NCBI GenBank assembly: GCA_963575745.1 | Contig: CAUYUJ010000273.1 | Location: 1 to 64,000, forward strand | Direction of reading: 5' to 3' | Length of the DNA: 64,000 nt | DNA from: Prorocentrum cordatum | Taxonomy: Eukaryota | Part shown: piece after piece, positions 1,748 through 54,138 of the stretch | Layout: each line of letters starts with the position of its first letter | Position numbering within the stretch: position 1 is the stretch's first letter | Notes under the pieces: generated by a model | Databases searched by the model: none | Told to the model about the DNA's origin: nothing | The model's input: only the letters and a program-made list of their open reading frames with translations | Made by a program: the position numbers and the translations under genes

Positions 1748-2690
1748 GTCTCTCTCTCTCTCTCTCTATATATCCTGGTTATCGATGTATATATCTTTAT
1801 CTCTCTCTCTCTCTCTCTCTCCTGTTCCGAACATGTGCGTACAATAGGTGTATGCATGTATACATGTCTGTGTATTTGTATGTATGGATGAACGCATAAA
1901 TGTGTATGCGTATGTCCGCGTGTGCGTATGTACGTGTGTGTATACATGTGTGCATGTGTGCATGTGTGGTATGCGTGTGTGGTATGTATGTGGGTATGTG
2001 TGTGCGTACTTGAGTATGTGCATGTATGTATGCGTGTATGTATATATGTATGTATGCGTATGGACTTGCATGTGGGGGTGTATGATTGTGTGTATGTACG
2101 TATGTGTGCATGTGCGTATGTATGTATGGTTGTGTGTTTGCACGTACGTACGTATGTATGTATGTATGAATGTGTATATGCGTGTTTGTGTGTGCATGTG
2201 TGAATGCATGTGCGTGGGTATGATTATATGTATGTACGTGGTTATGCATGCATGCATGCATGTACGTATGCATATATAGTCAGAGATGTGTATGTATGTG
2301 TGTATGTGTGTATGTATGTATGCACGTGCATGTGTACATATAAGTACGCAGGCATGTAGGTACGTCCGTGCTTACGTACGTGTGCGTTTGTATGTTTGCG
2401 TATGTATGTATGTACGTGTGGCTGTGTGTATGTATGTTTGTGTGTAGGCATTTGCGTACGCCTGTAAAAATGTATGTATGTGTGTATGTATGTACGCGTG
2501 TATGTGTGAATGTATGTGTACGCGTGGTTATGTGAATGTACGTGGTTATGTATGCATGCACGCACGCATGCAATTATTGATATCGGTGTGCGTATGTGCG
2601 TATGTACATGTAAGTATTTGTTTGTATGTATGCATGCATGCATGTATATATGTATGTATGGTTGCATGTATGTATGTATGTATGTATGTG
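1685..2690. repeat. (CT)n tract followed by degenerate (TATG)n/(TG)n tract
   Basis: Direct reading; explains the MYVC/HTYI ORFs. Confidence 0.95.
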
Positions 2691-3029
2691 CGAGGGAACG
2701 CGATCCACCGCCTATTTGTACAATTCCCACCCCTCTTCCCCCAGAACCGGGGGGGGCCCCCCTCCCCTTCGAACCCCCCCCCGTCTGCTGGACCCCCCCA
2801 TTGCTCCCCGGCAACCGCCCCCCCCCCCCCAAACCTCTCCCCCCACCCCCGCCCTTTCGGAAAACCGGAGGGGGGGCCACTACCAGTTCGAACCCCCCCC
2901 CCCGTTCCCTCAACAACACCTGGGGGGCCACTTCAGGTTCGAACCCCCCGCCCCCCCTCCAGAAAACCGGGGGGCCACTACGGGTTCGAACCCCCCTCCC
3001 CCTCCTCCACTCACCGCCGGCAATCGACT

Positions 3030-3963
3030 CCCGGGCCCCCACCACCGTCCGCACCACATCCCCCACCGCTGTCCCGAGCACAACTGTCCCCACCACCACT
3101 GTCCGCACTGTTCCCACCACCGCCCCCAATGTCCCCACCAATGCCCCCACTGTCGCACTGTCCCCACGGTCCCCACCACTGGTCCCACCACGGTCCCGCT
3201 CTCCCCACTTTCGCCACGGCCCCCGCAACTGTCCCACTGTCCCCACTGTCCCCGCCACTGTCCCACGGTCCCACTGTCCCCGCCGCTGTCCCACTGAGCT
3301 GCCCCACTGTTCCCGCCAATGTCCCAACTGTCCCCGCCACTGTACCTCTGCGTCATTGTCTCACCACCGTCCTCGCCACCGCCCTAACCACGGTCCCCAC
3401 AACCACTGTCCCCACCACGGTCCCACTGCCCCCACCATTGTCCCACAGTCCCCACACCACTGTCCCCACCACCACCATCCCCAGCACTGTCCCAGTCCCC
3501 ACCACTGTCCCATTTTCCCCACTGTTCCCGCCATTGTCCCCGCTGTCCCCACCAGTGCCCCCACCAGTGTCTCGCTGTCCCCGCTGTTCCCACCACTGTC
3601 CCGCTGTCCCCACTGTCCCCGCCGCTGTCCCACTGTACTGCCCCACTGCCCCCACTGCCCCCAACGCTGTCCCACTGTCCCCACGATCCCCATTGCCCCC
3701 ACCACTCTCCCCATTGCACTACTGTCCCACCACCGTCCTCACCACCGCCTTCACCGCTGTCCCCACACCATTGTCCCCACACCACTGTCCCACTGTCCCC
3801 ACTGTCCCAACCACTGCCGCGCTGCCCCCTCGCCACTGTCCCCACCACTACCGTCCCAACCGCTGTCCCATTGTCCGCGCCACTGCCCCACTGTCCCCAC
3901 ACCGCCGCGCCCACCACCACCGTCCCACCACTGTCCCGGCACCCCCGCCACTATCCCACTGTC
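3030..3963. repeat. Degenerate minisatellite built on CCACTGTCCC
   Basis: Many CCACTGTCCC-like words in tandem. Confidence 0.9.
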
Positions 3964-4109
3964 CCGAAGAGCTGGAATCGTTTGCCGGCGGCGGGGATGG
4001 GGCGAACCGAAAACGACCCCGCACGGTTTTCGACGGGGGGGGGGATGGGTTGGGACCCCCCAGTGACACCCGAATGTATTCCGCCAGCAGCGATCGAACA
4101 CGCTCCTTC

Positions 4110-4490
4110 GTATGTATGTACGCGCGCGTGTATGCATGTACGTACGGATGTATGCATGCACGCACGCACGCACGCACGCATGGATGTATGTATGTATGTA
4201 TGTGTGGTTGCGTGTATGTATACACGTATGCATGTATGTGTGCACCTAGCTATGTACGATCGGACAATGTGTGTATGCGCATCTACGCACGTTCGTGCCA
4301 GTCTGTATGTATGCACGCGGGTATGTATGCATGCATGTACGTATGCGTGTATGGATGGATGCGCGCATACCGGTGCGTGGATGTATGTATGTATGTATGT
4401 ACGTCTGTACGCACGGATAGACGTGTGTACGCATGTATCTACGAAGGGCACGCACGCGTGGATGCGCGCATGTGTGTTTATACCCATACG
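4110..4490. repeat. Degenerate (TATG)n microsatellite
   Basis: Direct reading. Confidence 0.9.
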
Positions 4491-4519
4491 GGAAGCACGG
4501 GCCCAACGGGGGGCGTCGT

Positions 4520-5110
4520 TTCCCTGGTCTGTTTTTCTTACGCACCACGGCAGAGACAATCCAATGTCACGAACCCGTGAACCTCTACTTGCGATTCTCC
4601 GCGATCCACATGGAGTCGCACCGCGGATCAAAGTGCCCGTCACCTTCAAGTTCGCCTTCTTCGCGGCCGCTTCCGCGGCCCGCCACTTACCCGCCACGAC
4701 GGCGCCCCCCTTCGCCGCGCACTCCCGCAACGCTGGCGCCAGCGACCTCGCCCCCCGAGGCTCGCCGCCAGGTGCACCTGCATCCCTCGGGAGCAAGCAC
4801 GCGGAGATACGGTTGTTCCCCAAGTTGCGCGACTTCTTCCACGTCGACTTCGACCCGCACCCCATCGCCGTCCAAAACCACCGAAACGTGCGCTCGCCGT
4901 CCTGGGCGCCCGCTTTCTGCTTCCAGTACCGAGTGCGCGTCTTCTGCCCTGTCTTCTTCGCGCCGTCGGCCACGAGACCAGCAGCGAGCCCGGCAACCCC
5001 TCGTCAAGCTTAGGTGTCTGCAAAAGGCGCCGCGCGCCATTCCCCGCGAGCGAACGCGGCGCCGCGGGGCGGTTCCTTGCGCGGGGCGCGATTCGACGAA
5101 CCGATACAGC
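4520..5110 (-). pseudogene. Decayed DNA-transposase fragment, probably ISXO2-like (IS1595/Merlin)
   Basis: Minus frames read AFCRHLSLTRG...RWFWTAM...PRGARSLAPALRECAAKGGAVVAGKWRAAE...ASRGSRVRDIG. This follows the order of ISXO2-like blocks (DE.F..RK..RG / W.WGA / L...I...GS.VV.D.W.AY / G...N.IE), with the acidic residues lost and frameshifts. Recognised by eye only. Confidence 0.45.
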
Positions 5111-12212: not shown

Positions 12213-13075
12213 GGACCAGTGCAAACCCAAGAGTCATCAACGATGATGGAATAAACCCTCCCTTCAAGCTCCCTCTTCATAGGCCCCTACAACGGTTCAT
12301 TGCCACTGAGGAAACTGCCTCGTTGGAAGACAACCGTTTGAAGACTCTGAAGCATGCCAAAACATTGTTCTCGAGATTCCAACGCCACGGATCAACCTGG
12401 CTGTTGCGTCTTGACGATCCTGCATCGTGCCAGAACGCCATTCCTGGGACTTCAACACCTCGAATCAACGTAACTGTTGCACCCTCACACAACACACTCT
12501 CTGGTACGTTGACCATGGGCATCCGCGAAACTCTGGCAGATGTTAGAAACGAATATGCGCGGCGCCGAAGCGGGACTTACATTTCGAAAAACCAGCCGCC
12601 CTCAATCCGTGAAACTCTTGCACATGTTTACAACAAATGCACGCGGCGCTGAGGCGAGAGCCACATTTTGAAAAATCAATTGCGAAGTGTTCAAACGAAC
12701 AAATTCACGCGGAGCTAAGGCGAGAACCACATTTTGAAACGACCCACCCTCAATCCGTGAAACTCTTGCAAATGTTTAAAACGAAAGCGAGAATCACATG
12801 TTGAAAACGACCAGCCCTCAATCCGCGAAACTCTTACAATTCGTTTCAATGTGCGCAGCGCGAAAACGAGAGTCACATTTTGCAAACGACCCGCCCTCAA
12901 TCCGCGAAGCTGTTGCACATTTGTGTCAACGAATGTGCGCGGCGCTAAGGCGAGAGCCACATTCTGAAACGACACGCCCTTCAACTGTGAAACTGCTGCT
13001 CCCTCTTCAGCAGTGAGGAAGTCTCAGGCGGAACGCCCGGCCCGACCTGAAAACTGGCCTCGGGGGCGATTGGAA
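12213..13075 (-). mobile_element. Family G ~0.7-0.85-kb element with internal tandem array
   Basis: Reverse complement of the copies at 18935, 25095, 28868 and 34169: shared head, repeated TGAGGGCGGGTCGTTT..AAAATGTGGCTCTCGCC units, tail GGGTTTGCACTGGTCC running into (CCT)n. Confidence 0.8.
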
Positions 13076-13239
13076 GAAGTGATGTATGAGGAAAAGGGAT
13101 GGAGGAGGAGGAAGAGGGGAAGGGAAGGAGGAGGACGGGTAGGCGGGGTACGCTGACGGGGAGCCCAAGGTGCACTCCTCCTCGTCATCCGCCGTATCCT
13201 GGTACGTGTATCTGCTTTCTCCTCATAGTACTGCTCGTC

Positions 13240-14020
13240 ATTATTATCCTCAACAAGATCACCACCACCCGCACTACCATCATCATCAGCATCATCAGCA
13301 TCATCATCTTCCACCTCATCAGCATCATCCTCATCCTCGTTATGATCCTCATCCACATCCTCGGTATCATCCTCATCCTCATCCTCATCCTCATCCGCAT
13401 CATCAGCATCATCATCGTCGGCATCATCATAACCCTCGTCGTCGTCATCACCAGCAGCAGCATCATCATAATCATCAGCATCATCATCAGCAGCAGCAGC
13501 ATCAACATCGTCGGCATCATAATCATCATCATCATGATCCTCACAGTGATTAACACTATCACCATCATCGACTCCAGCACCAGCACCAGCACCATCACCA
13601 CCAGCCTCATCAGCATCATCATAATCACAGTCATCATGATCTGGTCATCATCATCAGCAGCAGCATCATCAACCTCAACATCTTCATCATCGTCAGCATC
13701 AGCATCCTCATCATCAGCATCATCATCAACATCATGACGATCCTCACTATCACCATCATCAGCATCATCATAATCAGCATTACCATCATCACCATCATCA
13801 TGAACATCAACATCACCGGCATCACCACCTACACCGTGACCATCATCATTACCATCACAAACACCATCATCATCACCCTCAGCATAAACATCAACATCAG
13901 CATCATCATCAGCACCTTCATCTTCATCATCAGCATCATCAGCATCATCATCACCATCGCCATCGTGGCCACTACCAGTCAAACTCAAACATCCTCATCA
14001 CCACCATCATCGCCATCATC
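13240..14020. repeat. Degenerate (CAT)n microsatellite
   Basis: Direct reading. Confidence 0.95.
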
Positions 14021-14161
14021 CTACGACTCCCAAACCGAAGGAAGGGGGAAGGTGATCAGAACAGGAAGGGCCGGCGGAAGCAGGATGGGGCACCAGCAGA
14101 GCAGGCTGCTCTGGCAGAATCCGCCCAGTCCAGCCCGCCTCCCCACCCGTTACCGTACAGA

Positions 14162-14420
14162 CCACTCCCCCCCGTCGCACACCCAGACGTGTCGTGTCGG
14201 CAGGGCGGGCCAGGCAGCACGCCTGACACCGCCTCGCCACTCACGACCCTGAAGCCTGGAGGTTGCGGCAGCTGCACGGGGGCTCGTCTTTGAAGTGGGG
14301 CGTTCGCCCTGGCGCCGCGCACGTGTGTTGAAACATGTCGCAACGGCCGCAACGGAAGGGGGTGGGTTCCAAAATGGTGCAGTCGCAAGGGCGCCGCGCA
14401 CCTTCGTTCAATTGCACAAC
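14162..14420 (+). mobile_element. Truncated family G copy (head plus array units)
   Basis: GTCGCACACCCAG...ACCCTGAAGC head followed by array units. Confidence 0.6.
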
Positions 14421-15052
14421 AAACGCCTGGGTGTGAAGTCAGAGTGGAGCTCTCGGCTCAGCTCCGCGCACTCTCGCCTCACACGCTGGCAACAAATGAG
14501 AGAAGGAAACAGCCGGGTCGTTCTCACCGCGGGGCCCTCGCCGGGTCGCCGCGCACATCCTGCTCAAAACGTCCAGGAAGTGATGAGATAGAAGGAGGCG
14601 TGTATTACATGGTGTTCTCTTCTTTGCGCCGCACGCATTCCCCTTTTACCAATGTGCAGCGCTTACAACGATGGATTACAACTCTTGTTCAGAAAAAGGG
14701 TTGTTGCTGTAGCGCCGTGCAAATTAGCCTCAATAGATTTGAACAGGTGCAAGGACTGAATGCGGATCCTTTCTCCAAATGGGTTTCTCGTTTCAGCGAC
14801 ACGCGAATTCGTGCGAACAGCTTGTAACAATTAGAAATATGGGGTCGCCTCCTTGTCAAAGTGGTGCTCGCGCTAGCGCCGCGCACATTCGCCCTGAACG
14901 CCTGCAATAGCTGCGAGGACAGAGGGGCAAGTCCTGCTCAAGATGTAGGTCTCGCTCAAGACGCCTCTGCTCAATGTCGCTGCCAAGAGGCTTGTCGTGA
15001 GTAGCAACTGCACAGATGGAGGGCACCTCCTGTTGAAAGCTGGGGCTCCACT

Positions 15053-15208
15053 TGAGTCTGGCCTGTCCTCCTAAACGGGGATGTTGGACTACAAAACAAA
15101 TACTACGAGCATGCCGCAAAATAATCGACAAATGCTCAAAACATCTTCCCCTGAATATGATTAACTATGTTTGAATATCCCTCCTGTATAGGGTCAGGCC
15201 CGACTTAA
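15053..15208. mobile_element. Family D MITE
   Basis: TTGAGTCTGGCCTGTCCTCCTA...TATAGGGTCAGGCCCGACTTAA inverted termini. Confidence 0.65.
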
Positions 15209-15517
15209 GACTACATTCCGAGGCGATCGGAATAGAAAAACAGGCCCCAGCTCGTGCAAAGTGGTACAAGCATGTACCACAGAATTAGAGCAACGGCTGG
15301 GAACTATCGGTTAAGATGTCCTCCAATCTCACAGCCAGAAATGCCAACACGTACATCAACTGCGCGGACGGAAGGCGGCGGTTCTTCAAGACGGTATCAT
15401 CGCTGGATGCACGAATAAACGTGGTACTCCTATCTCGTCGCATTCCGCAAGAGGAGGAGGAGGAGGCCGAGGAGGGGGAAAGCAAGACACCTCCTTATTC
15501 AAAACGGGGCTCCCGGC

Positions 15518-15585
15518 TGAACGGCACGCGCTCGGGGTGCTCGTCTATCAAGGGGGCGCGCTGCTTGTGGTGAGGCAGAAGGCCC
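15518..15585 (-). CDS. Candidate exon (GLLPHHKQRAPLIDEHPERVPF)
   Basis: ccccgcag|G acceptor and high GC3; weak GC donor; in phase with neighbouring candidates. Confidence 0.35.
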
Positions 15586-15981
15586 CTGCGGGGAGTCGTG
15601 CAGAGGGACCCTGGGACGGGTGAATTGCAGCATCGTTGGTGTTCACTAGGTCCCTTCCGGGCATGGATCCTCCTCCTCCTCCTCCTCCTCCTCCGCATCC
15701 TCGTCTGATGAAAAAAACTACACGCGCCAAAACTTTACGGAATGAACGGGGAAGGGCAAGGAGATGAAGGCCCTATGAGTACGGGTGCGGGTTGTCGGAC
15801 CCCCAAAGGGGGCTCCTGTTCGAGCAGGGGCCCCCATCTCACAACACACGCCCACAGACCCCACGCAACTCCAGCCCGAGAAATCGAGAAGTTGCATTGG
15901 TATTGGTGCTAGATGTCAGCTCATGGTGTTTTTCCTTCTCATCACCCTCCTGCGCATCAACCTCCTCATCCACCTCACCCA

Positions 15982-16022
<41 letters not shown>

Positions 16023-16716
16023 CTGGTTGCGTGATAATCGACCACTTAAAAAATGCTACCCATGTGGGATGTAAAATGGGCACGCTCTGTCGCGAGATTG
16101 CTTATGATAAACGACGTACTCATCGCGGAGCGGAGGGGGTGGCTGGGAAGGGGCATACCACTCCTGGACCACATGCTGCCCCGATGCGTGACCGCGCGAT
16201 CGCCACGGCCACCTCCAAAACCGCCCTGGAGGTCTGGTTCAGGGTCGGATGAGGACCGCTTTTACTGCCTCAGAAGAGCACCCGCTGCCGGCCCGGGCCC
16301 CCCTCGCCCCTTCCCCCCCCTCCCGGGCAACGCCCCCACTCGTCCTCCTGGCCAGCCTCCGGGGTGCCCTGTGGGCTATCCCTATAGCCGCTCCCGGACG
16401 GCGCCAGCCCGAAGCGTGGCGCTGCCGGCTCCGCCCTCCCCCCTGCCCTCCCCCCCCCCCTTGGCGACGCCCGCTGCTGCCCGGAGAGGAGAAGACGCTC
16501 TCGTGCCACGTAAAGATCTCTCGTAACGCCCGATCTTGCCCGGAACATGTTTCGGGAGCGGCCAAGAGGGGGGTGTCCAAGAGGGGGGTGTGCAAATCAT
16601 GAGCGGCGGCATGTGCGCGGCCCAGCCGGGGGGGGCCTGGGACGCGATGAAATAAGAAGAGGCGCCATCAGATCTGGGGAAATATCGTGACCCCCGCCAT
16701 GATATCCACCACCCCC

Positions 16717-16908
16717 TACGGCAGGTTCGTGTCGTGCCGACCCCAGCGTTGGTTTTTGACACCGCAAGAATCGTTCAACCTTGAACGATCGGCCGCTGCC
16801 GCAATGTCCGATCGTTCAACATCGATCGATTCTGGGTCGCCGGCGGCGTTCAACCTTGAACGTCCGCGCTGGGGTCGCCGCTGGTCGACACGACGCAAAC
16901 CTACCGTA
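16717..16908. mobile_element. TA-flanked MITE (TACGGCAGGTT...AAACCTACCGTA)
   Basis: Inverted termini; diverged sibling at ~20086-20279. Confidence 0.7.
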
Positions 16909-17104
16909 GTCATCACCCCCCTCTTCTCCGCCCCCGAATGTTTTTGTTTCCTCCCTCCCTCCCTTGCCGGGAACGCCCTCCGTCGCGGCCGCGGGCAGCC
17001 GGGCCCCCCACCTCGCCCCGTGCGCGCGCCCCGGCCGTGCGGGTGGTCACTCCCCCCGAGGCAGCGCGACCGCTGTCCGCGGGGGGCGCGGGGCCCCATG
17101 TGGG

Positions 17105-17985
17105 CTCCTCCTCCTCCTCCTCCTCCTCCTCCTCCTCCTCCTCCTCCACATCCTCCTCATCCTCCTCCTCCGCAGTATCCTCCTCTTCGTCCTCCTGTCC
17201 TTGCTCCTCCTCCTCCTCCTCCTCCTCCTCCTCCTCCTCCTCCTCCTCCTCCTCCTCCTCCTCCTCCTCCTCCTCTCCTCCTCCTCCTCTCCTCCTCCTC
17301 CTCCTCCTCCTCCTCCTCCTCCTCCTCCTCCTCCTCCTCCTCCTCCTCCTCCTCCTCCTCCTCCTCCTCCTCCTCCTCCTCCTCCTCCTCCTCCTCCTCT
17401 CCTCCTTCTCTTCGGGCGCTGATCTCTCAAACGCTGTTGCAGCCCAGCTCATGCGCATCGCCCCGTCCCTCCCATCAACACAGGGGGGGCGGAGGAAGGG
17501 GCAGCAGCACAAGGGCACAGTTCTGCAGCAGGGGTCGCCCCCCAGGCGTGCGCCGAGCGCGCTGGGCCGCCGACCTGGTGAGCAGCGCGGACCCCCAGCT
17601 CTGCGCACGGCGATACCGCCCCCCTCCCCCCCCCGCCCTCCTCTCCCCCTCCGCATCCTTCTCATCTTCTCTCAACGTCCTCCCCCTCCCTCCTTCTTCC
17701 CCCCCTTCCCTCCTCCTGCCTATCCCTCCTCCTCCTCCTCCTCCTCCTCCTCCTCCTCCTCCTCCTCCTCCTCCTCCTCCTCCTCCTCCTCCTCCTCCTC
17801 CTCCTCCTCCTCCTCCTCCTCCTCCTCCTCTTCCTCCTCCTCCTCTCCTCCTCCTCCTCCTCCGCCTCCTCCTCCTCCTCCTCCTCCGCCCTCCTCCTCC
17901 TCCTCCTCCTCCTCCTCCTCCTCCTCCTCCTCCTCCTCCTCCTCCTCCTCCTCCTCCTCCTCCTCCTCCTCCTCCTCCTCCTCCG
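17105..17985. repeat. Two long (CCT)n tracts with a unique spacer at ~17410-17620
   Basis: Direct reading. Confidence 0.95.
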
Positions 17986-18061
17986 TCCGTAGCCTTTGGC
18001 TCAAGACCTCCGGGCTCAAGCGCAAGCGGCCCCACGGCGCGTTGAACCATCTTGGCTCAAA
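17986..18061 (+). other. Dinoflagellate spliced-leader (DinoSL) relics, stacked
   Basis: 17986-18005 TCCGTAGCCTTTGGCTCAAG versus canonical DCCGTAGCCATTTTGGCTCAAG (2-nt deletion only); GGCTCAAG again at 18013-18020; CCATCTTGGCTCAAA at 18047-18061 (13/15 match to CCATTTTGGCTCAAG). Confidence 0.85.
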
Positions 18062-18860
18062 CTTGTCATGGAATCGCGCACCGCACTTCCACGGAGCGCT
18101 TGAGGGGCACCTTGGGAATCAAGGTTGGCTAGGCGGTGCAAATATGTTTCATCGTATTCATCTCATGGCTATGGGCATGCAGTTCTTCCATCTACTGCAC
18201 GTTACAGGGCCTGGGCTGGGACAGAACAAGCTGGAAGGTACTTCAAATTGGGCTGCTTGGGGTTTGGTCATTGTTCAAGGAGGTTCTGTGCAAGTTCCGT
18301 CCCAGGCCGAGGGGCTTCGAGCCCGTCTAAGCCCTTCACCACTCGGCCTGGGTGTTCCTGCTCTGGTACGGCTTCGAAAAGTTCCGTCCCAGGCCGAGGG
18401 ATGGGTTGGAGGCACGGGGGCTGCGAGCCCATCTACGCCCTTCACCCCTCGGCATGGGCGTATCATCTCTTTTCGCAGTGTGTGGAGCTCATGCTGTCAG
18501 AATCGCTGCTATATTTCTTGTCGGCCAGTGGCGAGGCTGTTTGTGGTTGAGACGATATCTTTCAAGATTGCCCAGTGATCCTTGGCTAGGTCCTTATAGA
18601 GTCGATGCCAGTTCAGCTTAGGCGCTGGTTACGTCAGAGTGGCTGTTGAGTTTGATGGCTTGGCTTCAGATCTTAATACGTCTATATCATCAGCTCTGCG
18701 ATTCGATGTGTTTGCTGGAAGCCTGTCTTGAAAGCTCCGATGAAAGGGAAGCTGCTCATCCTCCTCTACACCTTCCACCAGTACCAGTTGCACCCGTCTC
18801 CTTCGTCATCTGAGTGGTGTGACAAGTATAAATAATCATGACTGACTTCGTCATTTTACC
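17986..18860 (+). pseudogene. Retroposed SL-headed transcript (processed pseudogene or retroelement 5' region) inserted in a (CCT)n tract
   Basis: SL at the 5' edge, then ~850 bp of lower-GC unique sequence with no convincing ORF; CCT repeats on both sides; 3' boundary approximate. Confidence 0.5.
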
Positions 18861-18934
18861 ATCCCATCCCGTCCCATCCCTCCTCCTCCACCGCCTCCTC
18901 CTCTTCCTCATCATCCTCCGCAACTTTTCCTATA

Positions 18935-19612
18935 AGTAACTCCTCCTTGCCGCACCCCGAGGCCAATCGAAAGAGACGGCTGGGCGTGTCGCCCTCACTT
19001 TCTCACCACATGTGACCCTGAAGCTTAGAATTTTGCATCCGTTCCACTGATCGAGGGCGGGCCATATTTAACGTGGTTCTCGCCGTAGCGCCGCGCACAT
19101 TCGTTGAAAAATACCAGAGATTTAAGGATTGAGGGCGCGTCGTTTGCACAATGTGGCTCTCGCCTTAACGCCCTGCACATCCGCTGCAAAACATGTCACC
19201 GAATGAGGGCGGGTGGCTTCCAACATATCACTCTCGCCTTAGCGCCGCGCACATTCGTTTAAACAAGTGCAAGAGTTTCACGGATTCCCATGGTCAAACG
19301 TACCAGAAATGATGTTTTGGAAGAACTGAGGATTGTGAGGGCGCAACAGTTACGTTGATTCGCTGTGTTGAAGGCCCAGGAACGGTGTTCTGGCACGATT
19401 CTGGATCGTACAGACGCAACAGGCAAATATTCGAGTCGTGGCGTTCGAACCCTGCGAATAGTGTGTTGGCACGCTGCAGGGCCTTCCAACAGATCTTCCA
19501 ACCAGGCAGTTCCCTCACTGAAAAATGCATCTTTGCAGGGACCTCTGGAGAGGGAGCTTGGAGAGAATATTCTGCCCAACATCGTTGATGAGTCTTGAAC
19601 TTACACTGGCCC
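18935..19612 (+). mobile_element. Family G element
   Basis: Head, array and tail present; (CCT)n on both flanks. Confidence 0.8.
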
Positions 19613-19848
19613 CCCTCCTCACTCTCCTCCTCCTTCTCCTCCTCCTCCTCCTCCTCCTCCTCCTCCTCCTCCTCCTCCTCCTCCTCCTCCTCCTCCGCCT
19701 CCTCCTCCGCCTTCTCCTTCTCCTCCTCCTCCTCCAACTCCTCCTCCTCCTCCTCCTCCTCCTCCTCCTCCTCCTCCTCCTTTGGCTCCTCTTCGCGTCC
19801 TCTCCGGGAGATCGGAGGCTCGCGCGCGGCCCCGCCGGCGGCGGGGGC

Positions 19849-19874
19849 CTCCCGACGCGAGCAGCTTGCCCATC
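19849..19874 (-). CDS. Candidate micro-exon (DGQAARVG)
   Basis: gag|G acceptor and AG|gc donor; bridges the phase between 22246 and 15585; only 26 nt. Confidence 0.3.
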
Positions 19875-19921
19875 CTCGGCGGCGCTGGACGTCGGGGAGC
19901 AGACAACGACACACGATTGAC

Positions 19922-20084
19922 TTAACCAGCCTCGAACGTATCCCTATCCCTAAGATTGACACGCCAAAAGGCGATGACAATCTTAGGGATTCGCCCTCAA
20001 AACATAAGGGAATCCCTATGATTGGCATCGTGATGAGGAGGTGCCCAGCATAATCAGGGATAGGGATATGTTCCAGGCTGGTAA
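19922..20084. mobile_element. MITE with TIR ACCAGCCTCGAACGTATCCCTATCCCT
   Basis: Inverted arm AGGGATAGGGATATGTTCCAGGCTGGT; diverged sibling at ~32536-32697. Confidence 0.7.
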
Positions 20085-21143
20085 ACACGGTCGACTCGAG
20101 CCGCGATGTCGCGGGCGTAGTTTCTGACGCCGCGTGGGTCGTTCCACCCTGAACGATCGCGGCTTTCTCCGACGGCGCAGATCGAAGGACGTCGGCCGCT
20201 TCTAGGCCCCTGGCGGCATTCCGCCTCGAACGTCAGCGCCTGGGTCGCCGCCGCGTCAACGCGGCGCAAACCTGCCGTAAACAGAACGTTTGGAGGTCCG
20301 CTGGGATTTCTCGGATCGGCGCTGGGCCCCCCTGACGGGGCCTCCGGCGCCGCCCCTGGCGCGCTCCGCGCGTCAGGCAGGGGGGGGTACGGAGCCGATC
20401 CAAGAAATCCACGCGGAGCTCCGAAAGGTTACGTGTACGTATGCAGTTTTCCCGTTGTTCGAAGAACTCGCCGTCGCTCGGACGCTCATACCCCGTGTAT
20501 GTTTCTGGCTTCGCGCGCGCATTTTTTCGCAAGACGACCCGAAAGGCTCCTCGATGATCCTCGCCGAGAGAAAATGCACAGGTCCTGGCGATGCCAAAAG
20601 AATGGCAGAGCTGTCCGTCTCCTCTCTGACCCATCACAACGATGTCTCTGGTCAAACGATGCCCCCACAAGAGACCCAAACACTGACACCCACGGAGCTC
20701 GATTTGGCTTAGGGTGTGGGGATTATCTGGAATCTCATCGTGGGCCTCTGTCCCCAAGAAACCCAGGAGTCCTTGACAAAGGCAAGCGGTATAGTGGTAC
20801 ATGTCCACACAGTCTGTCACTCCTTCCTTTTGACACCACGCCTCTTTGACCAACCACCGACTTCTGATCTATTCGTGGCACTCCCTGTGGTTGGGTCTTG
20901 CTTCGAGTAGAGCACTTACTGCTCACGTCTTCCTCCATCCCCCACCTCATCCCATTTTTCTCCTCTCCTGACTCTCCGCGTCACCCGATTCCCTCGTCGT
21001 CTCCTCTCTCCGCTCGCTCCCCCTGCCCTGACTATCGCTGCCGCGCAGCTGCCTTTCGCCTTCTTGCGCCCCAGACGAGCCCAGCGAGGTAGTGGGCCAC
21101 GCGGATCAAAGACATCGCCTCAGATCAAAGGCCTTGCCTCTCC

Positions 21144-21483
21144 TTGTGATGTTGCTATCTACCTCAGCCTTGACCACCAGAAAGAATTTCGGGTGGTCAA
21201 GGCTGAGTGTCTTCACGTGTCGGGCCCTGGGAGGCGAGACTCGCTCGACACCGTTTCGATACGTTCCTGGGTGCTCGAACATATCTCTGGGATGCGATCC
21301 TCCAGTACGATGGGAGCAACGTAAGCCTTAGGTCCGGCATGTCCTCCTACTGACGGATTTTGGAGAAACAATGAAAAATGGTCCAGAAATGCTCCCAACA
21401 TAATGAAAAATAGCCGAGAACTTCGTCTCCAGACTATTGCTTGACTATTTTTGGACACTCCTCCTGTAGAGGCACCCGACTTG
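21144..21483. mobile_element. Family H element (reverse) followed by a family D MITE
   Basis: Homology to 47907-48098 (reverse complement) and to the family D termini. Confidence 0.65.
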
Positions 21484-21677
21484 ACGCGCAAGCCTCTTCC
21501 TGGGGTGCCGCCGGGCGCGACGCCGGGCCGCCGCCCTCCCCCCCGCCGCGCGGGCCGCACCGCAGCCTCGCGCCTCGAGGAGGAGGAGGAGGAGGAGGAA
21601 GAGGAGGAGGAGGAGGGAGGAGGAGGAGGAGGAAGAAGAGGGAGGAGGAGGAGGAGGAGGAGGAAGAAGGAAGGCGT

Positions 21678-21931
21678 TTCTGTATGTTCGGCGATGACGG
21701 GCGTCATGGGGGGGGGGAGGGGGGGGGGGGTATGACGTGACGCCCCCCCCCCGTTGATGTACACAGGCGTTGTGGTGCATATCGCCACCTACATGTTCGT
21801 GCTATCCGTTCTCCGTCATTCCTAACCATTCCCAGACGCCGCCGGCGCGAAACGTGACGTCATCGACCCCCTCCCCCCCCAGATGATTGCCGTCATCGGC
21901 CCAGGCGACGAACCACGAGCGACGACGACTA

Positions 21932-21962
<31 letters not shown>

Positions 21963-22165
21963 CGACGACGACGACGACGAAGACGACGACGACGACGACA
22001 ACGACGCCTGCGGACCCGACACCTATGCGGATTCCTACGCGGATCCCAATGTGCACGGCGGCAGTGCCCGGAGCGCACTCGGGGGGGGAGCGTTACGTCA
22101 AAGGGGGGGGGAGGGGGGGGGAGCGGGGGCCATGACGGCCGTCATGCCCCAAGCAGTAAAGAAAT
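21678..22165. mobile_element. TIR-bounded element with internal (GAC)n tract
   Basis: GGCGATGACGGGCGTCATGG ... CCATGACGGCCGTCATGCC and TGACGTGACGC...GCGTTACGTCA inverted pairs. Confidence 0.5.
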
Positions 22166-22245
22166 GGCCTCAAGAGGGAGGACGAAGAGGAGGAGGAGGA
22201 GGAGGAGGAGGAGGAGGAAGAACTGCCGGGCGCACGGCTTCTCAC

Positions 22246-22341
22246 CTCGCGGCCGCCCCCGCCGTCCTGCGCCCCCTCTCTGCGGCGGGCCCGGGCGCTC
22301 GAGGCCTCCTCGCCTCCCTGCGCCCCGGAGAGGCCCGGCGC
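22246..22341 (-). CDS. Exon (APGLSGAQGGEEASSARARRREGAQDGGGGRE)
   Basis: ag|G acceptor within the TSD, canonical GAG|gtgag donor, very high GC3, 96 nt. Confidence 0.65.
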
Positions 22342-22344
22342 CTC

Positions 22345-22571
22345 TGAGGGGGCTCCACCACAAGTTGGACGGCGGGGGAAGGAGGAGGACGAAGAGGAGG
22401 AGGAGGAGGAGGAGAAGGAGGAGGAGGAGGAGGAGACGAAGGAGTGGAGGAGGAGGAGGAGGAGGAGGAGGAGGATGAGGAGGAGGAGGAGGAGGAGGAG
22501 GAGGAGGAGGACCCCCTCCCCCTCCAACATATGTATGGTGGTGGTGGTGGTGGTGGAAACCAGGCCCATCA
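22345..22571. mobile_element. Family B MITE with (GGA)n core; Introner-like, forms candidate intron 22342-22573
   Basis: TGA...CCCATCA termini; 5-bp TSD GCCTC at 22340-22344 and 22572-22576 (GAGGC on minus = AG|GC). Confidence 0.8.
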
Positions 22572-22573
22572 GC

Positions 22574-22726
22574 CTCAGCATTCCCGGGTGCTGCCCGGCG
22601 TGCCGCCAGCATCACTACGGCGATCGGGGGTCGACGCGTTGCCCCGGCGACGTTCGGGTCGTGCCTCGGGCCTCCCGCGGCCGCTCGGCGCGGTCCGTGG
22701 CGAATCGAGCCCAGAGTACTGTCGAG
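22574..22726 (-). CDS. Exon (LDSTLGSIRHGPRRAAAGGPRHDPNVAGATRRPPIAVVMLAARRAAPGNAE); 5' boundary and frame less certain
   Basis: ccccccag acceptor after a pyrimidine tract; GAG|gc donor in the TSD; 153 nt in frame with 22246-22341. Confidence 0.5.
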
Positions 22727-22777
22727 CTGGGGGGGGGGGAGGAGGAGGAGGAGGACGGAGGAGGAGGAGGAGGAGGG

Positions 22778-22877
22778 NNNNNNNNNNNNNNNNNNNNNNN
22801 NNNNNNNNNNNNNNNNNNNNNNNNNNNNNNNNNNNNNNNNNNNNNNNNNNNNNNNNNNNNNNNNNNNNNNNNNNNNN
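22778..22877. other. Assembly gap (100 N)
   Basis: Run of n. Confidence 1.
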
Positions 22878-23237: not shown

Positions 23238-23509
23238 CTCAAAGTGCCAGCACCCACGATACACACGCGCGACTGCGCGCACCCTGGAAGAGTTAGGGTC
23301 TGGATAGTTTCAATGCGAACTGTGACGCCAGCCTGCAGGCGGGGCGCGTCTGGAGGAGGAGGGGGGTGAAGGCTTGGAGAGTTCTTTGCTGAACCAGAAG
23401 GGGCAACAAAGACAGCCGGCGAGGGCTCCTGCCTGAGACGGAGCCAAGGACAGCTCGGCACAGGCACAGTTGCAGCAGCTGCCCCCGCTGCCCGAGACAG
23501 AGGAACAGA

Positions 23510-23660
23510 TGGTGGGCGTGTTTTCCACCACCACTACCATAAGTGGGAGGGGGAGGGGGTCCTCCTCCTCCTCCTCCTCCTCCTCCTCGTCCTCCTCCTC
23601 CTTATCCTCTACCTCCTTCCTCCCTCCAACTTGTGGTGGTGGTGGAAAACAGGCCCATGA
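23510..23660. mobile_element. Family B MITE with (CCT)n core, perfect 5-bp TSD ACAGA
   Basis: ~40-bp TIRs; ACAGA at 23505-23509 and 23661-23665. Confidence 0.85.
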
Positions 23661-23807
23661 ACAGAAAGCTGCATCAACAGAGACTGCAGAGTTCCCACGG
23701 CGATTTCTGTTGGGCCGGCGCTGGGCCTCCCCGCCCCCTGCGCACGGAGCGCGGGGGGGGGGGGCGGCGACCCAGTGACATCCAATCCGCTCGGGCCTCA
23801 GAGAGTG

Positions 23808-23976
23808 TACACCCTGCGAAATGCTTAAGAAATCATGGGTTAAGAAATTCATCGTCTCAGAATTTGAATCAAAGCCCAGAATGTCTATTCAAATCTTGGG
23901 ATTTACATTGAAACATTAAGAATAATCGAGACTCTGGCCGAAAATGTAAATTTTCTTAAGCATCGCCTGAGGTGTA
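23808..23976 (+). mobile_element. Family E AT-rich TA-flanked MITE (Tc1/mariner-type ends)
   Basis: TA-CACCCTGCGAAATGCTTAAGAAA...TTTCTTAAGCATCGCCTGAGGTG-TA; copies at 37426 and 43802. Confidence 0.85.
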
Positions 23977-26101: not shown

Positions 26102-26339
26102 CTCGAAACTCTGGCCGGAACGCGTCCAAAATGCGTGCACGCATGGTTTGTCCCCCCCCCCGAACTCGGGGTCCTCGCGTTGCCTGCTGCCTCCGGCTGG
26201 CCCTTGCGAAGCGTCGGAGGCGTCAACAGAAAGCTCTGCACGAAAAGGCAGTCGCGGGGAAGTGGTCGAGACCTCGAGGGGCAGGCGCTATGGAAGAACA
26301 TGGAGAATCCGTGAAGATCCCCGGAGAACCATTCAAAAT

Positions 26340-26437
26340 CGCACGCGCATACGCGCACACGCACACACGCGCACACAGACACACACACACACAAACTCTC
26401 ACACACACACACACACGCAGACACACACGCACACAGA

Positions 26438-26473
<36 letters not shown>

Positions 26474-26497
26474 GACACAGACAGAGACAGAGACACA

Positions 26498-26552
<55 letters not shown>
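26340..26552. repeat. (CA)n microsatellite
   Basis: Direct reading. Confidence 0.95.
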
Positions 26553-26553
<1 letters not shown>

Positions 26554-26638
26554 TACTTACTTTTGGCGGCAGAGGCCTCGCGCGTAGCGACGAGGCGGAG
26601 AAAGCAGTGTGCACAGGCAGTGCGCGCAGCGGCCGGGC

Positions 26639-37425: not shown

Positions 37426-37593
37426 TACACCTTGGGCGATGCTTAAGAAAACCTAAGTTTTCGTCCAGAGTCTCGATGATTCTTAATTTTTCAATGTAAA
37501 TCCGATGATTTTGATAGAAGTTCTGGGTTTTATTCAATTTCTGAGACTATGAGTTTCTTAATCCATGATTTCTTAAGCATTTCGCAGGGTGTA
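37426..37593 (-). mobile_element. Family E MITE
   Basis: Reverse complement of 23808-23976; TA at both ends. Confidence 0.85.
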
Positions 37594-38399
37594 CACACAA
37601 CTCCCAGGAGTCACCGGATGTGTCCCGTATTTTCCGGGTGTTCGTCCGTCCCCCCCCCCCGCTTCCCATACTGTCCTACGTTTTCCTGGCAGTCGGCGAC
37701 TGACTGTGTCTGTGTGTGCCTCTTTCCCTCCTCCAGCAGGGCCCTCCTCCGCACTCCCAAGCAGAAAAACAGCACAAAAAACATAAGTCCTTTTTTGTGG
37801 CGCTCCGCGGATCCGCGCTGGGCGCGCCCAGTAGCTAATTAGGCATGTTTCCGCGCCCCGGACAGCTTCTGACTCCGCATGCGCCTTCGCTTGCGGACGC
37901 GACCGAAAAAAAGGATCCGCGCTGGGCGCCCCCCCTCGCTGGCGCGCGGAGGCGCCGCCGGGGGGGCCCAGCATCGAACCGAGAAGTCGGATCGGCGATC
38001 GACATGAATCGTATCGGCGGAAATCGGCAGCAGAGTCGGGAAAGACCGGATCGGCGGAAATCGGCAGGCTCGTATGCGTCCAGTGAGAGATCGGAACCCA
38101 AATCGGAATCTCAAGTCGAGTCGGACCGGAATCGGAATCCATCGAAATCGAATCGAATCGAATCGGAGGAATCGGAATGAGCCCTGGCAGGACCCTCCTC
38201 CGCACTCCCTACAAGACTAATCCAAAACTACCTTTTAGCGCTCCGCGCGGACTTCTTGGATATCCGCGCGGAGTAGCAAAAGTTTATGTTTATAACGTTG
38301 TTCCTTCTTCGACTCCCTCATAGCGTCAAGCGTTTCGCGGCGCCGATCTTTCTCGTGGCGTTTAGCGACCTCCTCTTCCTATGCTTATGTTCTCTGCCT

Positions 38400-41085: not shown

Positions 41086-41429
41086 CTCTGCGGTGGCGCG
41101 GCCCGCTGGTCAGTCGGTGCGTCGGTGCGTCGGTGCGTCGGTGCGTCGGTGAGTCGGCTGTGCTTTATTTGTTCTATGTTTGTTTGCTTTTTGTGTTTTT
41201 TTCGGTCGGTCGGCTGTCGCGTGCTGCCACCGCCCTCGCCGCCGCCCCCGCCGTCGTCCGTCCGTCGTTATCAGCGCACGTTGTCCGTCGGCCGTCGTCG
41301 TCGCCAGCCGCGCGCCCGCCCGTCGGTCCAGCCGTCGACGTCGGGGGGCGAAGGGGGGCGGAACGGGGCGCAGGGAGGGCACAGGAGGTTCGAGGCTCGA
41401 GAGTCGCGGTCTGAAGTAAGTTCCTCATG

Positions 41430-41636
41430 GGAAACACAGAGACATACTAGTACTATATGTCCTCCTTGGATGCGAGCGTCCGACCCGAACATATAGTATA
41501 CCCGTCTTGTAGTATATCGTTTCCCGAGCGGTGTGGCCAGAAAGCGCACGCCACGACGCATATACTATAAGATTTCTCGGTGCGCGCGCCGCCCCTGGGG
41601 GGGCGACGCGCATATAGTATAAGTATGTTGGGTGTG
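41430..41636 (+). mobile_element. Family F ~200-bp dispersed element
   Basis: Homolog at ~54158-54368; CATACT...AGTATG inverted sub-termini. Confidence 0.7.
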
Positions 41637-43185: not shown

Positions 43186-43424
43186 CTGCCTGCTGAGACA
43201 GGCGCCAGAAAAAGCCAAGATCTACCCCATGGGGGGCTGGAGGGGGGGGGCGAGGGCCCGCGCCGATCGGCAAAACAATGAATAAAGAACGACCACGTGG
43301 AGCGGCGGCGACAGCAACTGATTGACGATTAGAAACGGGTCTCGCGCGAGATTCGATGATCCTCACGGCGTGTGTCAGCGCCAACGTGTGCCTGTCCACC
43401 GAGGCCCTTCTATACGACGCAGGC

Positions 43425-43590
43425 TGATGGGCCTGTTTTCCACCATCGCCACCATAAGTTGGAGGGGGAGGGGGTCCTCCTCCTCCTCCTCCTCCTCCTC
43501 CTCCTCCTAATCCTCCTCCTCCTCCTCCTAATCCTCCTCCTCCTGCCCCCCTCCAACTTTTGGTGGTCGTGGTGGAAAGCAGGCCCGTCA
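43425..43590. mobile_element. Family B MITE with (CCT)n core, perfect 5-bp TSD CAGGC
   Basis: ~45-bp TIRs; CAGGC at 43420-43424 and 43591-43595. Confidence 0.85.
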
Positions 43591-43801
43591 CAGGCGATGC
43601 CATGATCTGCGGGCGTGGCTGAACGGGGTACAGTCGGGGCGTTGACCTAAGGAACCCTAAATAAGGAAGAAGGCCCCTGTTTTCCATAAGTTGAACTTCG
43701 ATTTCCGATCGAAAACATGAGGAAAACCAGAACTTTGAAACAATCAAGGAACACGGAGCCCCTCCCCAACCAAAAGGGTTCCTTCTTCAGGGCCCCGACT
43801 G

Positions 43802-43970
43802 TACACCCTGCGAAATGCTTTAGAAATCATAGGTTAAGAAATTCATAGTCTCAGAACTTGAATAAAAACCCAAAATGTCCATTCAAATCTTAAGATTTAC
43901 ATTGAAACGTTAAGAATAATCGAGACTCTGGCCGAAAACTTAGGTTTTCTTAAGCATCGCCTAAGGTGTA
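43802..43970 (+). mobile_element. Family E MITE
   Basis: Near-identical to 23808-23976; TA at both ends. Confidence 0.85.
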
Positions 43971-52090: not shown

Positions 52091-52204
<114 letters not shown>

Positions 52205-52220
52205 CAGGGTGTCCCTCCCA

Positions 52221-52421
52221 TGATGAGCCTGTTTTCCACCACCACCACCATAAGTTGGAGGGGGGAAGGAGGAGGAGGGCGAGGAGGAAGAGGACAACGA
52301 GGAGGAGGGGGAGGAGGAGGGGGAGGAGGGGGGAGGAGGAGGAGGGGGAGGAGGAGGAGGAGGAGGAGGGAGGACCCCCCCCTCCAACTTATGGTGGTGG
52401 TGGTGGAACACGCGCCCATCA
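52221..52421. mobile_element. Family B MITE with (GGA)n core
   Basis: ~45-bp TIRs; flanks TCCCA/CCCCA (4/5 match). Confidence 0.85.
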
Positions 52422-53049
52422 CCCCAGGGTGTCCCCCCAGGCCCCAGGGGGACAGGTGCAGATGGTCAGGCTCTCTCCGAGCAGGAAGGCCTGGAGGATA
52501 TGCGTCGGGCGCCACGGCCGTGGCAGGGCGCCCCAGAACGCTCTGAGAGCAGTGTTCCTCATCCTCGGCCAGGAGGAGGAGGAGGAGAAGGAGGAGGAGG
52601 AGGAGGAGGAGGAGGAGGAGGACAGGCAAGAGTGAGCTCAGGTGCTCGGCTTCGGGGAAGCGCCAGAGGGGGGGGGGCAGGCAAAATCGGGCGCGCGAGC
52701 CGCTGCCATCGCGGCGCTGTGGTCGGGGGGGACCGCAGTGAGCCCGCACCCAAAGGGCACTCCGCACGCCAACGAAGGGCCATCCTTACGTGTGCACACC
52801 AGTCGTGAGGAGTGGATAGAGACATGAAGGAGGAAGGCGCTGAAAGCACCTTGGGCTTCCGCCCGCGATTTGAAGAGGATGGACTCAAGCCATTGATCCT
52901 GTTGAATTAGGACGGCGCCTAACGCAGATTGATTTCTGGGAATCCGTCTTGAGGGATCCAAAGACCCGGTGAGGAACTTGAGTCAAACTTATTTTTCTGA
53001 CGCGCGTGCAACATGTTCCCTTTGTGCCTGGCTGCAACCACTATCCCCT

Positions 53050-53922: not shown

Positions 53923-54138
53923 CCGGGGGCTGATTTTCCACCACCACCACCACTACAATGGGTGGGAGAGGGAGGAGGGGGAGGAGGAGGAGGAGGAGGA
54001 GGAGGAGGAGGAGGAGGAGGAGGAGGAGGAGGAGGAGGAGGAGCAGCAGGAGAAGGAGCAGGAGGAGGGGGACCTTGTGATCCTCCCTTCTCCCCCGTCC
54101 TACCTATGGTAGTGGTGGTGGAGAGAAGTGGCCCACCA
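53923..54138. mobile_element. Diverged family B MITE with (GGA)n core
   Basis: TTTTCCACCACCACC...GGTAGTGGTGGTGGAGAGAAGTGGCCCACCA; TSD not recognisable. Confidence 0.6.

What the first reader, a model, noticed from the sequence alone, without database searches (positions are those of the whole stretch)
22340..22576. Introner caught in the act: a microsatellite-cored MITE whose 5-bp TSD supplies both splice sites
Seen: a 227-bp element (22345-22571) with TGA...TCA inverted ends and a (GGA)n core, flanked by an exact 5-bp duplication (GAGGC on the minus strand). Splicing GAG|gc ... ag|GC removes the element plus one TSD copy (232 nt) and restores the uninterrupted frame ...GNAE-APGLSG... between two exon-like islands. 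Established: dinoflagellates use GC donors and AG|G junctions, and TSD-derived splice sites are a known route by which DNA transposons create introns (Introners). Inference: this family makes scarless introns whenever it hits NAGGC in sense orientation. On this strand the (CCT)n core also provides a pyrimidine-rich body that can expand. I cannot tell whether this particular family has been described.
Basis: partly seen in the sequence, partly recalled or inferred. Interest (0 to 1): 0.82.

Follow-up and report, generated by a model that had tools for sequence, protein, structure and literature searches.

The report
Decayed MITE copy, possible introner intron
A small non-autonomous DNA transposon with a triplet-repeat core really sits here between two 5-base duplications that could serve as splice sites, but nothing shows it is spliced, and this way of making introns is already published for dinoflagellates.

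Summary
The sequence observation holds. A 227-bp element lies at 22345-22571, flanked by an exact 5-bp duplication (GAGGC on the minus strand). It belongs to a real MITE family with five copies in the window: arms of about 50 nt, a (TCC)n core and 5-bp target-site duplications.

- The open frame after in-silico splicing carries no information. About 90% of random 232-nt removals between equally GC-rich flanks also leave a frame open.
- The flanking peptide has no homologue, and 211 scanned ORFs gave no Pfam domain.
- No public run covered the locus, so splicing could not be tested.

Three things favour the intron reading.
- A pyrimidine-tract CAG lies 153 nt upstream and AG|GTGAGA lies 96 nt downstream on the same strand. 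Both together occur at 0.2-0.3% of random sites.
- The two islands are GC-rich and gave no other match within the window.
- A second copy (43425-43590) has a CAGGC duplication in the same core orientation.

"Caught in the act" is wrong: this is the most decayed copy, with one arm partly deleted. Splice sites supplied entirely by a 5-nt NAGGH duplication are already described in Polarella glacialis (Roy et al. 2020, class 12). At best this is a new family of a known kind. I put the odds that it is spliced at about 40%.

The parts
22345..22571 (-). E1, the focal MITE copy (227 bp). Read on the minus strand: a long 5' arm, a (CCT)n core, then a truncated 3' arm.
   Evidence: nhmmer termini at 22571-22512 (50.9 bits) and 22353-22379 (18.7 bits, model positions 23-49 only).
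22572..22576 (-). Upstream copy of the 5-bp target-site duplication (GAGGC on minus). Would give exon ...GAG | gc intron.
22340..22344 (-). Downstream copy of the 5-bp target-site duplication (GAGGC on minus). Would give intron ...ag | GC exon.
22380..22511 (.). Triplet microsatellite core: (AGG)n on plus, (CCT)n on minus.
   Evidence: TRF: period 3, 44.3 copies, 88% matches.
22342..22573 (-). Hypothetical 232-nt GC-AG intron (element plus one duplication copy). Not shown to be spliced.
   Evidence: Arithmetic. RNA fold -52.8 kcal/mol, z -2.78. No read cover.
22574..22726 (-). GC-rich island 1 (153 nt, 51 open codons); putative exon. No other match in the window.
   Evidence: No homologue.
22727..22745 (-). 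Pyrimidine tract ending in CAG, an acceptor-like site just upstream of island 1. The tract runs into the 100-N gap at 22778-22877.
   Evidence: one of 3 distinct such sites on the minus strand of the window.
22246..22341 (-). GC-rich island 2 (96 nt, 32 open codons); putative exon.
22241..22247 (-). AG|GTGAG donor-like site at the end of island 2.
   Evidence: one of 6 AGGTRAG sites on the minus strand of the window.
23510..23660 (+). E2, family copy (151 bp) with duplication ACAGA (23505-23509 and 23661-23665).
43425..43590 (+). E3, best-preserved family copy (166 bp) with duplication CAGGC (43420-43424 and 43591-43595), in the same core orientation as E1.
   Evidence: Near-perfect hairpin, -90.1 kcal/mol, z -12.5.
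52221..52421 (-). E4, family copy (201 bp). Flanking pentamers match in 4 of 5 positions (TCCCA/CCCCA on plus). It sits inside a short tandem repeat.
53926..54138 (-). E5, diverged family copy (about 213 bp). Duplication not determinable. It lies between other repeats.

Best explanation
The feature is an old, partly decayed copy of a non-autonomous terminal-inverted-repeat DNA transposon (a MITE).

Shown: intact family members are 150-200 bp hairpin-forming elements. Their arms are about 50 nt long and themselves contain a CCA repeat. The core is a (TCC)n microsatellite of variable length. Insertion duplicates 5 bp of target.

Inferred: a transposase encoded elsewhere makes a 5-bp staggered cut, and the core changes length by replication slippage.

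On this reading the focal copy is one of many insertions in repeat-rich, largely non-coding DNA of a large GC-rich marine eukaryote genome. The AGGC in its duplication reflects a target bias of the family or chance, and the copy is not itself a working intron. The splice-like layout makes it a candidate introner, nothing more.
For: - Family: 10 termini making 5 elements. Exact 5-bp duplications in 3 of 5, and a 4-of-5 match in one more.
- E3 folds into a near-perfect hairpin, z -12.5, with 0 of 200 shuffles as good.
- E1 is the most decayed copy.
- No coding signal around it. The island-1 peptide has no hit at E <= 1 among 1,443 word-sharing candidates. Its only 3 hits among 1.84 billion representatives are unrelated tandem-repeat proteins matching different parts of the query.
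- GC by codon position is 0.83/0.72/0.79, with no third-position excess.
- Of 211 ORFs scanned (out of 246 high-entropy ORFs), none passes a Pfam cut-off.
- The open frame is uninformative.
- E3, which has the same type of duplication, has no splice-like borders, and stops follow within 17 codons downstream in all frames.
- The element is surrounded by other repeats.
Against: - E1 on the minus strand is the only one of 10 element-strand combinations with both an acceptor-like pyrimidine tract plus AG 30-300 nt upstream and an AGGTRAG 30-300 nt downstream. Only 0.17-0.32% of 200,000 random position/strand draws have both (motifs were chosen after seeing the site).
- The two islands are 78% GC against 59% for the window, and they gave no other BLAST match in the window.
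- The duplication is splice-competent on that same strand. NAGGC makes up 0.49% of pentamers per strand.
- E3 shares NAGGC in the same core orientation. From the frequency, the chance of this for one of the other three copies is about 1.5%. A non-palindromic target held in a fixed orientation to the core is not what a symmetrical transposase alone predicts.
- Many dinoflagellate genes have no homologues, so the missing homology is weak evidence (my own knowledge).
Confidence: 0.55

Rival explanations
1. The MITE landed in a roughly 249-nt exon of a minus-strand transcript at GAGGC. The two duplication copies now give GAG|gc...ag|GC. The spliceosome removes the element plus one duplication copy (232 nt) without a scar, with the (CCU)n core as a pyrimidine-rich intron body. 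This would be an introner of the type in which both splice sites come from the duplication.
For: - The duplication and the arithmetic fit.
- Acceptor-like and donor-like sites on the same strand, 153 nt upstream and 96 nt downstream, are rare jointly (0.17-0.32% of random sites).
- The inferred host exon of 153 + 96 = 249 nt is a multiple of 3.
- A further GT...AG|GC interval of 77 nt with a (CCT)n body follows at 22245-22169 (read).
- E3 has CAGGC in the same core orientation.
- The mechanism is documented for a 5-nt NAGGH class in Polarella glacialis.
- Window GC of 59.2% resembles the 59.7% reported for Prorocentrum cordatum, whose introns are reported as enriched in introner elements (passages). 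This is a lead only.
Against: - No transcript evidence of any kind is available.
- No homologue and no codon periodicity.
- The frame argument is void.
- The upstream acceptor-like site is AG|C, not the AG|G that Roy et al. report as strongly conserved in dinoflagellates.
- A CAG made of the element's last two bases plus the first base of the duplication lies 2 nt before the proposed AG and could compete with it.
- GCTGAT is a poor donor for any spliceosome except the dinoflagellate type (my own knowledge), and that taxon is not shown: no spliced-leader relic and no Rfam hit.
- Two of the 4 readable duplications (ACAGA and TCCCA/CCCCA) are not splice-competent.
Confidence: 0.42
2. It is not a mobile element at all: a (GGA)n microsatellite that happens to be flanked by short inverted and direct repeats.
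For: (GGA)n/(TCC)n runs are very common here. There are 60 perfect runs of at least 24 nt, 2,421 bp in all, and most lie outside the five elements.
Against: Ten termini share an approximately 50-nt sequence at E values from 1e-17 to 6e-5. They occur in five inverted pairs with unrelated flanks, and three pairs have exact 5-bp flanking duplications.
Confidence: 0.01

Closest known systems
Polarella glacialis introner-like elements, class 12 (Roy et al. 2020 preprint, 10.1101/2020.10.14.339549; text parts 1-2 read)
   Same: 5-nt target-site duplication. With NAGGH, both the 5' and the 3' splice site come from the duplication. GC donors predominate. Introns form in a single strand orientation.
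   Different: Class 12 elements start with C, which lets NNAGG plus C give a GC donor. This family starts with T, so NNAGG would give a GT donor. Sequence relatedness could not be checked because the element sets are in a supplement I could not see. Introner status is unproven here.
P. glacialis classes 13 and 14 (same preprint)
   Same: [quoted passage not shown]
   Different: Their duplication is 4 nt, not 5, which implies different transposition machinery.
Symbiodinium introner-like elements (Roy et al. 2020; Gozashti et al. 2022, PMC9860276, passages)
   Same: MITE-like introns in dinoflagellates, with inverted repeats and a duplication that supplies a splice site.
   Different: Their duplication is 4 nt. 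[quoted passage not shown]
Amoebophrya introner elements, and the pattern-defined introner elements of Prorocentrum cordatum (Farhat et al. 2021, PMC7789003, passages; Dougan et al. 2023, PMC10666404, passages)
   Same: Direct repeats of 3-5 nt overlapping the intron ends, plus terminal inverted repeats that form a hairpin bringing the exon ends together. The P. cordatum genome is reported at 59.7% G+C; this window is 59.2%.
   Different: Those were defined by inverted repeats of 8-20 nt within annotated introns, not as a sequence family. The arms here are about 50 nt, with a microsatellite core. I have not shown that this window comes from either organism.
Microsatellite-associated MITEs of plants (e.g. 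pineapple, PMC8449440; search listing only)
   Same: A MITE family that carries a microsatellite inside.
   Different: Plant elements of other superfamilies, with no link to intron creation. The paper was not read.

Membership tests
MITE (non-autonomous TIR DNA transposon) | Terminal inverted repeats shared by all copies | tested here: met
   10 termini in 5 inverted pairs. Arm-to-arm identity is 38-45 of 54-57 columns in E2-E5 and 28 of 59 in E1.
MITE (non-autonomous TIR DNA transposon) | Target-site duplication of constant length, with a different sequence at each copy | tested here: met
   5 bp: GAGGC, ACAGA and CAGGC are exact, and TCCCA/CCCCA matches 4 of 5. E5 is undetermined. That is 3 exact of 5.
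MITE (non-autonomous TIR DNA transposon) | Several copies in unrelated flanking DNA; small size; no coding capacity | tested here: met
   Sizes are 151-227 bp. Flanks are unrelated except for separate neighbouring repeats.
MITE (non-autonomous TIR DNA transposon) | An autonomous partner with the same termini that encodes a transposase | not testable with these tools
   No whole genome is held. No transposase domain appears in the 211 ORFs scanned from the window.
Introner / introner-like element | Copies coincide end to end with spliced introns of expressed genes | not testable with these tools
   No annotation or genome is held. None of the four laid runs covers 22232-22603.
Introner / introner-like element | Splice sites present at or next to the element ends | tested here: inconclusive
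   GAG|GC...AG|GC is available at E1, and CAG|GC...CAG|GC at E3. Neither E2 nor E4 has such sites, so 2 of 4 readable duplications qualify.
Introner / introner-like element | Host sequence is a gene (exons on both sides) | tested here: inconclusive
   Splice-like borders on the right strand are rare, 0.17-0.32% of random sites. But there is no homologue, no codon periodicity and an uninformative frame.
Introner / introner-like element | An intron-less orthologue, allele or paralogue (empty site) | tested here: inconclusive
   No paralogue of the flanks exists in the window. Nothing was found in the metagenome, prokaryote-genome or viral collections.
P. glacialis class 12 ILE | 5-nt duplication of the form NAGGH or NNAGG | tested here: inconclusive
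   The length is 5 nt in all readable copies. The motif is present in 2 of 4.
P. glacialis class 12 ILE | Element begins with C, giving G|C donors with NNAGG | tested here: not met
   The termini begin with T: TGA or TGG in nine of ten, TCA in one.
   No match to the recalled 21-nt spliced-leader motif within 3 mismatches. No Rfam family and no Pfam domain. Only the composition (59.2% GC) and high-copy repeats shared with marine runs fit.

The most novel reading that the evidence does not exclude
This is an undescribed introner family in a large, GC-rich marine protist, most likely a dinoflagellate. It has a 5-bp duplication and 50-nt arms that themselves carry a CCA repeat. Its (TCC)n core grows by slippage and doubles as the intron's pyrimidine-rich body. 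The family makes scarless GC-AG introns only when its C/T-rich strand is the sense strand and it lands in SAGGC. The focal copy would be an old, fixed example whose transposon arms have decayed while the duplication-derived splice sites have been kept.
Probability: 0.35. Interest if true: 0.4.

Novelty: new member of a known kind. Interest (0 to 1): 0.28.

Why it matters
If the copy is spliced, it adds one more family, probably in one more species, to the documented list of dinoflagellate introners whose target-site duplication supplies both splice sites. There would be a small twist: an expandable microsatellite core that also gives the intron a pyrimidine-rich body.

It would not open a new question. 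The mechanism, the 5-nt NAGGH case and the link to intron phase are already published. If it is not spliced, it is an ordinary MITE in repeat-rich DNA.

The practical lesson for the scan is that an open frame across a removed segment means nothing in DNA that is 78% GC.

Tried and rejected
- **Whole-genome census:** no genome is held for this window.
- **Public runs:** 6 runs were listed and 4 hold part of 12778-22777, at shares of 0.13, 0.10, 0.05 and 0.05. One of them is an RNA metatranscriptome.
- **Laying the four runs on 20000-22777 at 90% likeness:**
  - Only short stretches were covered, most at very high depth (for example 20000-20092, 20279-20464, 21209-21394 and 21674-22231).
  - No run covered 22232-22603, and X1 reached depth 1.5 in 22604-22696.
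  - The RNA run laid two 31-nt contigs at 22102-22129.
  - No joint lay at the element.
  - This says nothing either way about transcription, splicing or empty sites.
- **Earlier findings of the scan:** nothing by place, sequence or words.
- **Scans for the arm in public collections:**
  - Metagenome contigs gave 0 matches, then 2.
  - Prokaryote genome contigs gave 2.
  - Viral contigs gave 0.
  - All four matches are single, unpaired chance matches in unrelated DNA.
- **Protein searches with the 51-aa island-1 peptide:** none at E <= 1 among longer proteins. There were 3 hits in the representative library, all tandem-repeat proteins hitting different parts of the query, so I rejected them as low-complexity matches.
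- **Pfam:**
  - I listed 559 stop-to-stop ORFs of at least 70 aa and dropped 313 for low entropy.
  - Of the remaining 246 I scanned 211.
  - Only sub-threshold matches appeared in 61 ORFs, and none in the other 150.
- **Taxon markers:** no match to the spliced-leader motif and no Rfam family.
- **A segmental duplication shared by E2 and E3:** rejected. Their flanks are unrelated; only the MITE and a separate repeat 143 and 207 nt downstream align.
- **Literature on this family:** searches found no description of a MITE with these features. bioRxiv supplements that list Polarella elements could not be seen, so an earlier description cannot be excluded.

Full report
**What is in the sequence**

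On the minus strand the region reads: GAGGC (22576-22572), a 227-bp element (22571-22345) that starts TGA and ends TCA, then GAGGC again (22344-22340). The middle of the element is a triplet array, (AGG)n on plus at 22380-22511.

The window is 59.2% GC and has two 100-N gaps, one of them only about 50 nt upstream of the region. No whole genome is held for it.

**It is a real transposon family**

I built a profile from the element ends. It finds exactly ten termini in the window (E from 1e-17 to 6e-5). They form five inverted pairs:
- E1: 22345-22571
- E2: 23510-23660
- E3: 43425-43590
- E4: 52221-52421
- E5: about 53926-54138

Intact arms are about 45-50 nt long, not 3 nt, and they contain a CCA repeat. 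The core is a (TCC)n array that differs in length between copies.

The flanking pentamers are:
- GAGGC/GAGGC at E1
- ACAGA/ACAGA at E2
- CAGGC/CAGGC at E3
- TCCCA/CCCCA at E4
- unreadable at E5

So 3 of 5 duplications are exact and one matches 4 of 5. Flanks are otherwise unrelated.

E3 folds as RNA into an almost perfect hairpin (-90.1 kcal/mol, z -12.5). This is a MITE with a 5-bp target-site duplication. It matches E3 and E4 termini with 1-3 mismatches but not E1.

**The focal copy is old, not caught in the act**

- One arm of E1 lacks about 16 nt and scores 18.7 bits, against 37-59 bits for the other nine termini.
- Its two arms are identical in 28 of 59 aligned columns, against 38-45 of 54-57 in the other copies.
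- Its hairpin is weak (-52.8 kcal/mol, z -2.8).

**The frame argument fails**

Removing 22573-22342 does join ...GNAE to APGLSG... in an open frame. But among 1,691 random 232-nt removals in this window with flanks of at least 70% GC, 89.7% leave some frame open and 54.5% leave a given frame open. The real flanks are 78% GC. A frame also stays open straight through the unspliced element. GC by codon position is 0.83/0.72/0.79, with no third-position excess.

The 51-aa island-1 peptide found nothing at E <= 1 among longer proteins. In 1.84 billion representatives it hit only three unrelated tandem-repeat proteins. Of 246 high-entropy ORFs in the window I scanned 211 against Pfam, and none passed a cut-off.

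**What does speak for an intron**

- On the minus strand, a pyrimidine tract ending in CAG lies at 22745-22727, directly before island 1 (153 nt).
- AG|GTGAG lies at 22247-22241, directly after island 2 (96 nt).
- The window's minus strand holds only 3 and 6 such sites respectively.
- In 200,000 random position/strand draws, both an acceptor-like site 30-300 nt upstream and a donor-like site 30-300 nt downstream occur in 0.17% (strict) to 0.32% (lenient) of cases.
- Of the ten element-strand combinations, only E1 on the minus strand has both.

I chose these motifs after seeing the site, so the figures flatter the case.

The two islands together are 249 nt, a multiple of three. A further GT...AG|GC interval of 77 nt with a (CCT)n body follows (read).

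E3 carries CAGGC in the same orientation relative to the core. NAGGC makes up 0.49% of pentamers per strand. Given E1, a second such case among the other three copies has a chance of about 1.5% (my arithmetic).

**What speaks against it**

- E3 has no splice-like borders, and stops follow in all frames within 17 codons downstream.
- E2 and E4 have duplications that are not splice-competent.
- The upstream acceptor-like site is AG|C rather than AG|G.
- A CAG formed by the element's end and the first duplication base lies 2 nt before the proposed AG.
- GCTGAT is a donor only for a dinoflagellate-type spliceosome (my own knowledge), and the taxon is not established. The recalled spliced-leader motif has no match within 3 mismatches, and there is no Rfam hit.

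**The decisive test could not be run**

One search for public runs returned only small shares (0.13, 0.10, 0.05 and 0.05; one RNA metatranscriptome). Laid on 20000-22777, these runs cover only short stretches, most at very high depth. None covers 22232-22603. Scans of metagenome, prokaryote-genome and viral contigs for the arm gave only four chance matches. The scan's own notes hold nothing on this genome.

**Comparison with what is known**

Roy et al. (2020 preprint, text parts 1-2 read) describe 15 introner-like classes in Polarella glacialis:
- Class 12 has a 5-nt duplication. With NAGGH it takes both splice sites from the duplication, mostly with GC donors.
- Classes 13 and 14 do the same with a 4-nt AGGH.

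Other published cases:
- Gozashti et al. 2022 describe families in which both sites come from the duplication or the insertion site (passages).
- Farhat et al. 2021 describe Amoebophrya elements with 3-5-nt direct repeats and hairpin-forming inverted repeats (passages).
- Dougan et al. 2023 report that the introns of the 59.7%-GC Prorocentrum cordatum genome are enriched in introner elements, which they identified by that inverted-repeat and direct-repeat pattern (passages). The composition match with this window is a lead only.

The present family is not class 12, because its ends begin with T, not C. Sequence relatedness to any published set could not be checked. My four literature searches found no description of this family.

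**Verdict**

A real MITE family with a 5-bp duplication is certain. The focal copy is a candidate introner of an already published type. I put the odds that it is spliced at about 0.4 and the odds that it is simply a decayed insertion in non-coding DNA at about 0.55. Novelty is at most a new member of a known kind.

Noticed in passing
window 53743-53921 and 55783-55956: A second MITE-like family of about 175-180 bp, with short inverted ends (CAGTCAACCCG...CGGGTTGACTG). The two copies are 74% identical. One copy directly abuts E5.
   Followed up: partly
window 23803-23976, 43797-43970 and 37442-37596 (minus): An AT-richer repeat of about 160-175 nt, 86-90% identical between copies. Two of its three copies lie 143 and 207 nt downstream of a MITE copy (E2, E3) in the same orientation, with unrelated DNA in between. 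This could be coincidence or a shared insertion preference.
   Followed up: partly
window 20000-20092, 20279-20464, 21209-21394, 21674-22231: Short stretches covered by contigs of three coded DNA runs, one of them a marine metagenome, at summed depths from tens up to about 1.7e5. These are interspersed high-copy repeats shared with other organisms.
   Followed up: no
window 54158-54364 and 41428-41632: Another repeat pair, 85% identical over 210 nt. One copy starts just right of E5.
   Followed up: no
window 52200-52440: E4 sits inside a short tandem repeat. A 13-nt unit, GGGACACCCTGGG on the minus strand, occurs on both sides, which blurs its duplication.
   Followed up: no
window 13278-13958, 17105-17984, 26300-26600 and throughout: Very long microsatellites: (CAT)n of 680 bp, (CTC)n of 880 bp and a CA/TG-type array. 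There are also 60 perfect (GGA)n/(TCC)n runs of at least 24 nt (2,421 bp), most of them outside the MITE copies.
   Followed up: partly
window 2448-4577 (+): The longest open frame of the window (710 codons) is proline/threonine/valine-rich low complexity flanked by dinucleotide-repeat translation. It has no Pfam match and is most likely not a gene.
   Followed up: partly
window 22245-22169 (minus): A 77-nt GT...AG|GC interval with a (CCT)n body lies right after island 2. In the island frame, a stop codon follows 8 codons later. If the islands are exons, this could be the last intron and the end of a coding sequence.
   Followed up: no
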